From a virus, in the IMG/VR virus record IMGVR_UViG_3300025030_001854, positions 32,001 through 96,000 of that record: a DNA stretch of 64,000 bases; one strand, written 5' to 3'. The position numbers and the translations under genes were made by a program. Under the pieces are notes generated by a model. It made no database searches and was not told the DNA's origin. It was given only the letters and a program-made list of their open reading frames with translations. Below, in pieces: positions 29,198 to 29,665 of the stretch. Numbering within the stretch: the first letter of the stretch is position 1; each line of letters opens with the position of its first letter.

Positions 29198-29230
29198 AAA
29201 AAACCCGCTATCTTTTCAGGGACAGCGGGT
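29198..29230 (-). terminator. intrinsic terminator (putative attenuator)
   Basis: ACCCGCTGTC-CCTGAAAA-GATAGCGGGT followed by a T run. Confidence 0.8.
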
Positions 29231-29250
29231 ATTTAACTATTTTCCCCCAC

Positions 29251-29346
29251 TTATCCCACACCCCCTGTATTGGCAATAAAATAACAATCACTTGCCCATT
29301 TAGGAGCGAGGGTCACTGTTTCTGATTGACGTAATACAAATATCAT
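29251..29346 (-). CDS. 31-aa leader peptide MIFVLRQSETVTLAPKWASDCYFIANTGGVG
   Basis: ATG at 29346, TAA at 29251; GTGTAA motif just upstream; terminator 20 nt downstream; below the ORF-track length cutoff. Confidence 0.62.
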   Translation of the reverse strand: MIFVLRQSETVTLAPKWASDCYFIANTGGVG

Positions 29347-29665
29347 TTTCTTATCTTACACCTATTTGATGTAATTTTCCAAAAAAAATTCAAAAAGAAA
29401 TTAAACTTTCAAAAATTTTTCAATTCTTTTCTCTTGATGAGTATTTCCATAAGGAATAGTTGGAAGCCAAGGGAAGCTTCTTCCAGTCCATCCTATTGGT
29501 AAATCTTTTAAAGTTTCTACTTTTTTAACGTCAAAAGTGATAGAATCTGCCTGAGCAACAATTTCGTCTCTATTTTTTCTCCAAATATCCTCGGCGAGCT
29601 TCTTTAGGTCAGATTCTTGATAGAAATTTTCTCCAACTATTTCAGTTTCTAATGTTATTTTAATT

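What the first reader, a model, noticed from the sequence alone, without database searches (positions are those of the whole stretch)
29198..29362. Pan-amino-acid leader peptide and attenuator at the head of the tRNA array
Seen: GTGTAA motif, then a 31-codon ORF MIFVLRQSETVTLAPKWASDCYFIANTGGVG using 19 of 20 amino acids (all but His; the first ten residues all differ), then an intrinsic terminator 20 nt after the stop. The last codons (ACAGGGGGUGU) can pair with the terminator 5' arm (AUACCCGCUGU) at 10 of 11 positions. Established: in trp/his-type attenuation ribosome position chooses terminator or antiterminator, but those leaders are enriched for one amino acid. Inference: a ribosome reaching the stop masks the antiterminator and transcription ends; stalling at any earlier codon lets transcription run into the tRNA/Y RNA array. 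It would be a general sensor of tRNA loss. A separate sigma70 promoter downstream (29119-29147) could give unregulated early expression.
Basis: partly seen in the sequence, partly recalled or inferred. Interest (0 to 1): 0.86.

Follow-up and report, generated by a model that had tools for sequence, protein, structure and literature searches.

The report
Small ORF and terminator before tRNA array
A 31-codon open reading frame and a strong transcription terminator sit just upstream of a groundwater phage's tRNA gene array; the RNA could fold like a classical attenuator, but the array has its own promoters and no relatives exist to test the idea.

Summary
It comprises GTGTAA (29361-29356), a 31-codon ORF (29346-29251, 19 of 20 amino acids), an intrinsic terminator (29230-29203 plus U-tract) 20 nt after the stop, and a TTGACA-17-TAGTAT promoter (29147-29119) before the first tRNA (28958-28888).

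The RNA has the 1:2 / 2:3 / 3:4 topology of a leader-peptide attenuator. With a ribosome masked at codons 9-19 the fold favours an antiterminator (-14 to -17 kcal/mol). At the stop codon that stabilisation is lost (-1). The switch is rare in controls: 1 of 300 shuffles, 0 of 166 natural gene ends, rank 1 of 32 terminators.

Only codons 9-19 flip the fold, so the "pan-amino-acid" reading is not supported. Leader codons are not enriched for those read by phage tRNAs (20 of 31 against 64%). The array has its own promoter 56 nt after the terminator, and four more of the same family lie inside it.

No relative carries the element (103 related loci, 1.8 billion protein representatives). No RNA data exist.

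Most likely (0.55) this is the end of an insulated small-gene cassette. A translation-sensing attenuator remains possible (about 0.27).

The parts
31380..31409 (-). Promoter-like site TTGATA-18-TATATT, the likely start of the small-gene cassette, just after the Ro60 terminator (31514-31490)
   Evidence: 10 of 12 matches; one search lists it as intergenic
29401..31436 (-). Eight tightly packed or overlapping small orphan ORFs (68, 115, 85, 52, 166, 52, 74 and 92 aa). The last one (p92) ends 54 nt before the 31-codon ORF.
   Evidence: There are no strong PHROG matches; the best are phrog_14651 (E 0.002) for the 115-aa ORF and phrog_354 (E 0.007) for the 166-aa ORF. p92 matches only itself among 5.8 billion proteins.
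29356..29361 (-). GTGTAA motif 9 nt before the ATG. It is a gene-start signal used across the record, usually with 8 nt spacing.
   Evidence: GTGTAA-N8-ATG: 8 in the window against 0.37 expected
29251..29346 (-). 31-codon ORF (MIFVL...GGVG) with stop TAA at 29253-29251
   Evidence: Its codon-usage log-odds of 0.269 is typical of real genes and in the top 4.7% of 193 small ORFs. It was called as a 31-aa protein on 12 contigs.
29302..29312 (-). Helix arm 1 (CCCUCGCUCCU, codons 12-15)
   Evidence: pairs with arm 2 in the MFE and centroid folds, -17.1 kcal/mol. The adjoining codons 11-13 are rare codons.
29244..29268 (-). G-rich arm 2: ACAGGGGGUGUGGG (codons 27-31), the stop codon, then GUGGGGG. 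It can pair either with arm 1 or with the terminator's 5' arm.
29203..29232 (-). Intrinsic terminator hairpin (arms 3 and 4, 10 bp, loop 8), followed by the U-tract at 29202-29192
   Evidence: (-17.0 kcal/mol)
29119..29147 (-). Sigma-70-type promoter TTGACA-17-TAGTAT, 56 nt after the terminator stem
28888..28958 (-). First tRNA of the array (Gly, anticodon gcc)
   Evidence: Rfam tRNA, 46.7 bits; relaxed ARAGORN

Best explanation
The element is the 3' end of an insulated cassette of small early genes.

Transcription probably starts at the promoter-like site after the Ro60 terminator (31409-31380). It runs through eight packed small ORFs and a ninth ORF of 31 codons that is probably translated. 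It stops at a strong hairpin-plus-U6 intrinsic terminator (29230-29197). RNA polymerase then starts afresh at TTGACA-17-TAGTAT (29147-29119) to transcribe the first block of the tRNA array.

Shown: the ORF, the terminator, the promoter family and the packed operon. Inferred: the direction and extent of transcripts, and translation of the ORF.

A G-rich stretch across the stop codon can pair with the terminator's 5' arm. Terminator efficiency may therefore depend somewhat on translation of the last ORF. On this reading that is a side effect, not a dedicated sensor.
For: - The eight upstream ORFs overlap or abut, and the 31-codon ORF follows after 54 nt.
- The cassette is bracketed by two strong minus-strand terminators in this 7-kb scan, 31514-31490 and 29230-29203.
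- TTGACA-N17-TAnnnT occurs 10 times in the window, all on the minus strand, against 1.22 expected. None of 100 shuffles reaches 10.
- The whole record has 18 such sites on the minus strand and 2 on the plus strand.
- One of them lies 56 nt after this terminator and four more lie inside the array span. The tRNAs therefore need no read-through.
- The ORF's codon usage looks coding: log-odds 0.269, against a mean of 0.303 (sd 0.127, n = 957) for real-gene chunks and -0.041 (sd 0.152, n = 193) for small ORFs.
- It carries the GTGTAA start signal.
- Leader codons are not enriched for phage-tRNA-readable codons: 20 of 31 against 64.1%.
- No analogous small ORF with a convincing terminator precedes the first tRNA in 11 array heads (9 distinct) of other Ro60-bearing contigs. 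Only 3 rows (2 distinct) have a short ORF before a weak hairpin.
- Much of the complementarity follows from local G-richness: 9.2% of 2000 local shuffles reach the duplex energy.
- 38 of 400 synonymous recodings keep the switch.
Against: - The ribosome-position switch is stronger than chance models give. It appears in 1 of 300 dinucleotide shuffles and 0 of 166 natural gene ends joined to this terminator. It ranks 1 of 32 among native terminators with an upstream frame. Only 2 of 400 synonymous recodings reach the real difference.
- Rare codons (GTG 9%, ACC 14% and CTC 3% of their synonyms) sit exactly in and beside helix arm 1. This hints at selection on RNA structure.
- Only 4 of 18 minus-strand promoters of the family have a terminator-like hairpin within 200 nt upstream. 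A terminator at this spot is therefore not routine.
- The 211-nt region folds better than all 200 shuffles, z = -3.2.
Confidence: 0.55

Rival explanations
1. It is a ribosome-mediated transcription attenuator that senses translation speed.

- With no ribosome, or one that has reached the stop codon, arm 2 is paired to arm 1 or masked. The terminator forms and transcripts from the upstream cassette end.
- A ribosome stalled at about codons 9-19 melts helix 1:2 and leaves the G-rich arm 2 free. Arm 2 then pairs with the terminator's 5' arm, and transcription continues into the first block of the tRNA array, adding to its own promoter.
- The sensed codons would be GAA ACA GUG ACC CUC GCU CCU AAA UGG GCA AGU, not the whole peptide.
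For: - The three helices have similar energies: -17.1, -18.8 and -17 to -18 kcal/mol.
- The antiterminator stabilisation is -14.3 to -16.9 for A-site codons 9-19, -9.4 without a ribosome and -1.1 at the stop.
- Controls rarely show the switch: 1 of 300, 0 of 166, rank 1 of 32, and 2 of 400 recodings reach the real difference.
- The stop codon lies inside arm 2 and 20 nt before the hairpin, as in classical leaders.
- The ORF has coding-like codon usage and the GTGTAA signal.
- Rare codons GUG-ACC-CUC lie in the sensitive stretch, and by strict wobble all three are read by phage-encoded tRNAs.
- The downstream genes are tRNAs, which gives the arrangement a functional logic.
Against: - An independent promoter lies 56 nt downstream, and further promoters lie inside the array.
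- The ORF is the ninth in a 2.2-kb operon and does not sit directly after a recognised promoter.
- Its start context is atypical: N9 rather than the modal N8, and A at -1 where 97 of 131 genes have T. Its position-weight score is at the 17th percentile of true starts.
- There is no codon-tRNA enrichment: 20 of 31 overall and 5 of 9 in codons 10-18.
- There is no conservation evidence of any kind.
- The statistics are post hoc on the best candidate out of about 30-60 terminators.
- Even without a ribosome, a -9.4 kcal/mol competitor to the terminator exists.
Confidence: 0.27
2. It is a non-coding structured RNA. On this reading the 31-codon frame is incidental, and the segment is a structured 3' UTR or a small RNA. 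It would consist of a long bulged helix (arms 1 and 2 enclosing a small hairpin) followed by a terminator, the usual build of bacterial sRNAs. It might stabilise the cassette's transcript or act in trans.
For: - The 211-nt region has z = -3.2, and none of 200 shuffles folds as well.
- The same helices appear in the MFE and centroid folds.
- Rare codons lie in the helix arms.
- The start context is weak.
- The peptide has no homologues. Only itself and two giant repetitive proteins were hit among 1.84 billion representatives.
Against: - Codon usage is coding-like, in the top 4.7% of 193 small ORFs.
- GTGTAA lies at gene-start spacing.
- The MFE of the ORF plus UTR is not unusual against synonymous recodings: 114 of 400 fold at least as well.
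- No Rfam family matches.
- There is no second copy in the record.
Confidence: 0.1

Closest known systems
Leader-peptide (class I) transcription attenuators of amino-acid operons (trp, his, leu, thr, ilv, pheA). Named from recall, not from a call.
   Same: - A short ORF ends just before an intrinsic terminator.
- Helices 1:2, 2:3 and 3:4 are mutually exclusive.
- The stop codon is placed so that a terminating ribosome masks arm 2.
- The length of 31 codons is within the known range.
   Different: - There is no run of codons for one amino acid.
- The element is not placed directly after a promoter.
- The downstream genes are tRNAs, not biosynthetic enzymes.
- An independent promoter lies between the terminator and those genes.
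- It is on a phage.
- It has no relatives, so there is no covariation support.
Ribosome-stalling attenuators upstream of resistance genes: bmrB-bmrCD (PMC4191407), vmlR (PMC9226507), msrD (PMC10314930). Only the search listing and the start of each abstract were seen.
   Same: The leader ORF has no amino-acid bias. General ribosome stalling, rather than lack of one amino acid, would favour read-through. The induced genes would relieve a translation problem.
   Different: Those respond to antibiotics bound to the ribosome and control ABC-F or transporter genes in Firmicutes. Here the output would be tRNAs, and nothing has been tested.
T-box riboswitches (recalled)
   Same: They link tRNA status to read-through of an intrinsic terminator.
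   Different: T-boxes bind uncharged tRNA directly, need no ORF and have conserved specifier and T-box sequences. Rfam found no such match here.
Ordinary intrinsic terminator followed by a promoter at an operon boundary in phage early regions (recalled)
   Same: A G+C-rich hairpin with a U-tract follows the last ORF of a packed operon, and a consensus-like sigma-70 promoter follows it.
   Different: The upstream G-rich tract is complementary to the terminator's 5' arm beyond what control sequences give.

Membership tests
Intrinsic (Rho-independent) terminator | G+C-rich hairpin immediately followed by a U-tract | tested here: met
   10 bp, 6 G-C, loop 8, then TTTTTTATTTA; -17.0 kcal/mol
Leader-peptide transcription attenuator (trp/his type) | Short ORF ending shortly before the terminator | tested here: met
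   31 codons, with the stop 20 nt before the stem
Leader-peptide transcription attenuator (trp/his type) | Antiterminator (2:3) that excludes the terminator, and an anti-antiterminator (1:2) inside the ORF | tested here: met
   Tested in silico only. Energies are -18.8 and -17.1 kcal/mol. The fold switches with the masked ribosome position. The switch is rare in controls.
Leader-peptide transcription attenuator (trp/his type) | Cluster of codons for the regulating amino acid in the leader | tested here: not met
   19 different residues in 31 with no run of one amino acid; 9 types in the 11 sensitive codons
Leader-peptide transcription attenuator (trp/his type) | Regulated genes depend on read-through (no promoter between the terminator and the genes) | tested here: not met
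   TTGACA-17-TAGTAT lies 56 nt after the stem and belongs to a family enriched 10 against 1.22 expected
Leader-peptide transcription attenuator (trp/his type) | Leader is translated, and read-through responds to ribosome stalling | not testable with these tools
   No RNA run is on record, and the host is unknown. Codon usage and GTGTAA favour translation. The start context does not.
Leader-peptide transcription attenuator (trp/his type) | ORF and alternative helices conserved or covarying in relatives | tested here: inconclusive
   No relative carries the element in 103 Ro60-anchored loci. A covariance-model search of 99 of them gave one hit at E 6.1. p92 and the peptide are orphans. Contigs from other samples are identical.
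Any curated RNA leader or riboswitch family (Rfam 15) | Match to a covariance model | tested here: not met
   There is no match at gathering score. At E up to 10, only an unrelated STnc370 hit (25.8 bits against 54 gathering, plus strand) overlaps it.

The most novel reading that the evidence does not exclude
A phage-encoded, translation-sensing attenuator. A ribosome slowed on rare codons 9-19 of a 31-codon leader (GUG-ACC-CUC and neighbours, several of them read by the phage's own tRNAs) frees a G-rich arm that disables the terminator. Transcripts of the upstream cassette then extend into the tRNA array. This would be a feedback or alarm loop that raises phage tRNA supply when decoding falters, for example when host defences cut tRNAs.
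Probability: 0.25. Interest if true: 0.75.

Novelty: new member of a known kind. Interest (0 to 1): 0.42.

Why it matters
How phages time and dose their tRNA genes is largely unknown. Phage tRNAs are currently discussed as a counter to host tRNA-cleaving defences (recalled).

A leader ORF that couples decoding speed to transcription of a tRNA array would be a new use of ribosome-mediated attenuation. It would be the first link of this kind between translation status and tRNA supply. My two literature searches listed nothing of the kind. One search listed all 12 of its hits and one search listed 15 of 129. None dealt with it by title or abstract.

If the ordinary reading holds, the locus is still a clean example of cassette insulation in an uncultivated groundwater phage. 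That phage also has an unusual gene-start signal (GTGTAA-N8-ATG).

Tried and rejected
Searches for relatives:

- p92 as an anchor in viral contigs gave 20 pattern matches, none a relative.
- An exact 22-base pattern from the G-rich arm gave 0 matches in viral contigs.
- Ro60 as an anchor gave 23 viral loci and 80 metagenome loci (best 60% identity).
- tblastn with 10 local proteins and blastn with the 1-kb region gave nothing at E <= 0.01 in the 103 loci. Only noise appeared at E <= 10 in the first 23.
- Rfam on the 23 viral loci showed no syntenic array.
- A covariance model built from the single sequence was searched against 99 of the 103 related loci. L101-L104 were left out because of the 100-source limit. 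It gave one hit at E 6.1, inside a Ro60 gene.
- In the phage's own record the model found only the element itself and the reverse strand of its terminator.
- phmmer of the peptide against 1.84 billion representatives returned itself and two proteins of 2152 and 3269 aa, which I take as compositional matches.
- Cluster look-up: the peptide is identical on 12 contigs, and p92 has one variant, 91 of 92 identical.

Sequencing runs:

- 18 runs were listed and no RNA holder was listed.
- Four low-share runs were laid in the hope of divergent strains. They proved to be sparse, identical contigs with one C>T at 29100 at depth 2.2. They give no diversity and no information on expression.

Other ideas tested and dropped:

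- That the leader prefers codons served by phage tRNAs: not so.
- That a Y RNA fills 29115-28955: the fold has z = -0.5 and there is no Rfam match. I did not pursue it.
- That GTGTAA is a known phage promoter: one paper was checked in a single passage and was unrelated.

Supplements of papers were not needed.

Full report
**Setting.** The window is bases 32001-96000 of a 136.8-kb IMG/VR virus record, estimated 71% complete, with 33% G+C. It is held by groundwater metagenomes. The protein collection records the same proteins on contigs of up to 175 kb.

The finding lies on the minus strand. In the direction of transcription the layout is as follows.

- A Ro60/TROVE-vWA gene at 32942-31536.
- A strong terminator at 31514-31490 and promoter-like sites at 31477-31380.
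- Eight overlapping or abutting orphan ORFs of 52-166 aa, ending with p92 at 29679-29401.
- A 54-nt spacer, then the 31-codon ORF and the terminator.
- A promoter, then tRNA-Gly at 28958-28888.
- About 25 tRNA genes follow, down to 8607. Together they cover 19 amino acids, with no Phe, under relaxed ARAGORN settings. Only 12 are found at default settings, and Rfam finds 12 to 16. HNH and other endonuclease ORFs are interspersed among them.

- GTGTAA lies at 29361-29356.
- The ATG is at 29346 and the frame has 31 codons.
- The stop TAA is at 29253-29251.
- The hairpin is at 29230-29203, followed by U6. It begins 20 nt after the stop.
- The 10-of-11 complementarity holds, counting one G-U pair.
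- The promoter-like site lies at 29147-29119.

Nineteen residue types in 31 is rare.

- It occurs in 1 of 545 ATG ORFs of at least 31 aa, and that one is this ORF.
- It occurs in 0.25% of 62,187 stop-free windows.
- It occurs in 0.35% of windows in the same G+C band and in 0.31% of in-frame windows of real genes.

This figure is post hoc. As shown below, it has little bearing on the proposed mechanism.

**Is the ORF a gene?**

Evidence for:

- Its codon-usage log-odds per codon is 0.269. That is at the 36th percentile of 957 chunks of real genes and in the top 4.7% of 193 small ORFs.
- GTGTAA is a real gene-start signal in this phage. Of 44 occurrences, 15 have ATG 8-9 nt downstream, and 10 of those open ORFs of at least 80 aa.
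- GTGTAA-N8-ATG occurs 8 times in the window against 0.37 expected.

Evidence against:

- The spacing here is 9 nt. Only 1 of the 4 N9 cases opens a long ORF, against 9 of 11 N8 cases.
- The base before the ATG is A, where 97 of 131 long ORFs have T. The general start-context score is at the 17th percentile of true starts.

I take translation as more likely than not.

**The RNA.** The 211-nt region folds better than all 200 shuffles, z = -3.2.

Three helices of similar strength compete.

| Helix | Arms | Energy (kcal/mol) |
|---|---|---|
| 1:2 | Arm 1 (CCCUCGCUCCU, codons 12-15) with arm 2 (AGGGGGUGUGGG, codons 27-31) | -17.1 |
| 2:3 | Arm 2, or the second G-tract just after the stop, with the terminator's 5' arm | -18.8 |
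| 3:4 | The terminator itself | -17 to -18 |

I masked 28 nt around each A-site codon and asked how much pairing of the terminator's 5' arm stabilises the nascent RNA.

| Ribosome position | Stabilisation (kcal/mol) |
|---|---|
| None | -9.4 |
| Codons 2-8 | -8.7 to -10.2 |
| Codons 9-19 | -14.3 to -16.9 |
| Codons 20-26 | -9.1 to -11.4 |
| Codons 27-30 | -5.1 to -6.5 |
| Codon 31 and the stop | -1.2 and -1.1 |

So the formal logic of a class I attenuator is present. However, only about 11 codons are 'sensitive', not the whole peptide.

**Is that more than chance?** I defined a switch as -14 or better at codons 10, 14 or 18, together with -3 or weaker at the stop.

- It appears in 1 of 300 dinucleotide shuffles of the ORF plus UTR.
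- It appears in 0 of 166 natural 3' ends of ORFs of at least 80 aa joined to this terminator arm.
- Among 32 native terminator-like hairpins with an upstream open frame, this one ranks first. Its difference is 15.8, against 11.5 and 6.8 for the next two.
- With the peptide and UTR fixed, 38 of 400 synonymous recodings still switch, and 2 of 400 reach the real difference.
- By simple duplex energy it ranks 2 of 63.
- 9.2% of local shuffles, but only 0.85% of random genomic 111-mers, reach that energy.

So much of the effect comes from a G-rich stretch straddling the stop codon. The rare codons GTG (9%), ACC (14%) and CTC (3% of synonyms) lie in and beside arm 1.

These numbers are suggestive. 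They were computed on the best-looking candidate among some 30-60 terminators, so a chance origin is far from excluded.

**What speaks for an ordinary boundary.**

- The promoter after the terminator belongs to a clear family. TTGACA-N17-TAnnnT occurs 10 times in the window, all on the minus strand, against 1.22 expected.
- The record has 18 such sites on the minus strand and 2 on the plus strand.
- Five lie in the array span, at 29147, 22749, 15709 (a perfect 12 of 12), 14902 and 10168.
- The array is therefore several transcription units with their own promoters, so a head attenuator cannot be its master switch.
- The leader is not behind a recognised promoter. It is the ninth ORF of a packed operon.
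- Leader codons are read by phage tRNAs no more often than phage codons in general: 20 of 31 against 64.1%, P = 0.56. In codons 10-18 the figure is 5 of 9.
- On the other side, only 4 of 18 promoters of the family have a terminator-like hairpin within 200 nt upstream. Insulation at exactly this point is therefore not routine.

**Comparative evidence: none could be obtained.**

- p92 matches only itself among 5.8 billion proteins.
- The peptide matches only itself, plus two giant proteins, among 1.84 billion representatives.
- Ro60-anchored searches gave 103 loci at 60% identity or less. None carries the neighbouring ORFs, the region's DNA or a structural look-alike. The last point rests on 99 of the 103 loci searched with a covariance model.
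- Several of those contigs do carry tRNA arrays beside Ro60. In the 11 array heads examined (9 distinct), no convincing small ORF plus terminator precedes the first tRNA.
- Contigs of the same phage from other samples are identical.

**Comparison with known systems.**

- The element works like, at most, a ribosome-mediated attenuator. It fails two defining features of trp/his-type leaders: a run of control codons, and dependence of the downstream genes on read-through.
- In logic it is nearer to the stalling-type leaders of bmrCD, vmlR and msrD. For those I saw only the search listing and abstract starts.
- Rfam holds no matching family.
- Two literature searches listed no leader-peptide control of phage tRNA genes.

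**Verdict.**

The alternative pairing is real and unusual, and the downstream promoter is real.
- The pan-amino-acid sensor, and control of the whole array, are not supported.

| Reading | Probability |
|---|---|
| 3' end of an insulated small-gene cassette, with a probably translated orphan ORF | 0.55 |
| Translation-sensing attenuator acting on codons 9-19 | about 0.27 |
| Non-coding structured RNA | about 0.10 |

Interest is 0.42. Interest would be about 0.75 if the attenuator were shown.

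Noticed in passing
window-wide, e.g. 28476-28460, 25710-25694, 22113-22097, 20984-20968, 16859-16843 (minus strand): GTGTAA-N8-ATG precedes many genes. There are 8 in the window against 0.37 expected. In the whole record, 15 of 44 GTGTAA have ATG 8-9 nt downstream. The motif often sits directly after a tRNA or a terminator hairpin. 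It may be a non-Shine-Dalgarno ribosome signal or a -10-only promoter giving leaderless mRNAs. AGGAG occurs upstream of only 2 of 108 long ORFs.
   Followed up: partly
start codons of ORFs of at least 100 aa, whole record: T stands directly before the ATG in 97 of 131 long ORFs. This is unexplained.
   Followed up: no
3230-3258, 5459-5487, 10140-10168, 14874-14902, 15681-15709, 22721-22749, 29119-29147, 33032-33060, 38961-38989, 57547-57575 (all minus strand): A promoter family TTGACA-N17-TAnnnT, often with CAAAC or CAAC in the spacer. There are 10 in the window against 1.22 expected, and 18 on the minus and 2 on the plus strand of the record.
   Followed up: partly
8607-28958 (minus strand): About 25 tRNA genes for 19 amino acids (no Phe) are found with relaxed ARAGORN. 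Only 12 are found at default settings and 12-16 by Rfam, so many are atypical tRNAs. Anticodons such as cga, ctc, ctg, gcg, gag and ggc read G/C-ending codons that are rare in this 33% G+C phage. HNH and endonuclease ORFs lie between them.
   Followed up: partly
38557-38942 (minus strand): A phage-borne tmRNA gene: Rfam 109.8 bits, and also found by ARAGORN.
   Followed up: no
31536-32942 (minus strand); loci L047, L079/L080, L072/L074, L083, L018/L082, L093: The Ro60/TROVE-vWA gene has relatives at 60% identity or less in 103 viral and metagenome loci. Several of these sit inside or beside tRNA arrays, a recurring Ro60-tRNA association in phage contigs.
   Followed up: partly
28634-28891 (minus strand): A weak manA-RNA-like match lies between the first two tRNAs: 17.7 bits against 55.2 gathering, E 0.2.
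   Followed up: no
L024 9847-9902: A type-P5 twister ribozyme (54.2 bits) in an unrelated Ro60-bearing viral contig.
   Followed up: no
56100-63941 (plus strand): Two B12-binding radical SAM proteins and a 795-aa AMP-binding enzyme lie in one plus-strand block. This is possibly a modification or small-molecule cluster.
   Followed up: no
genome C1:147 region (outside the window, minus strand): The only terminator with a stronger upstream complement to its 5' arm (-19.1 kcal/mol) also follows an ORF that ends in GGGATAAGT, the same nine letters as at the end of the 31-codon ORF.
   Followed up: no
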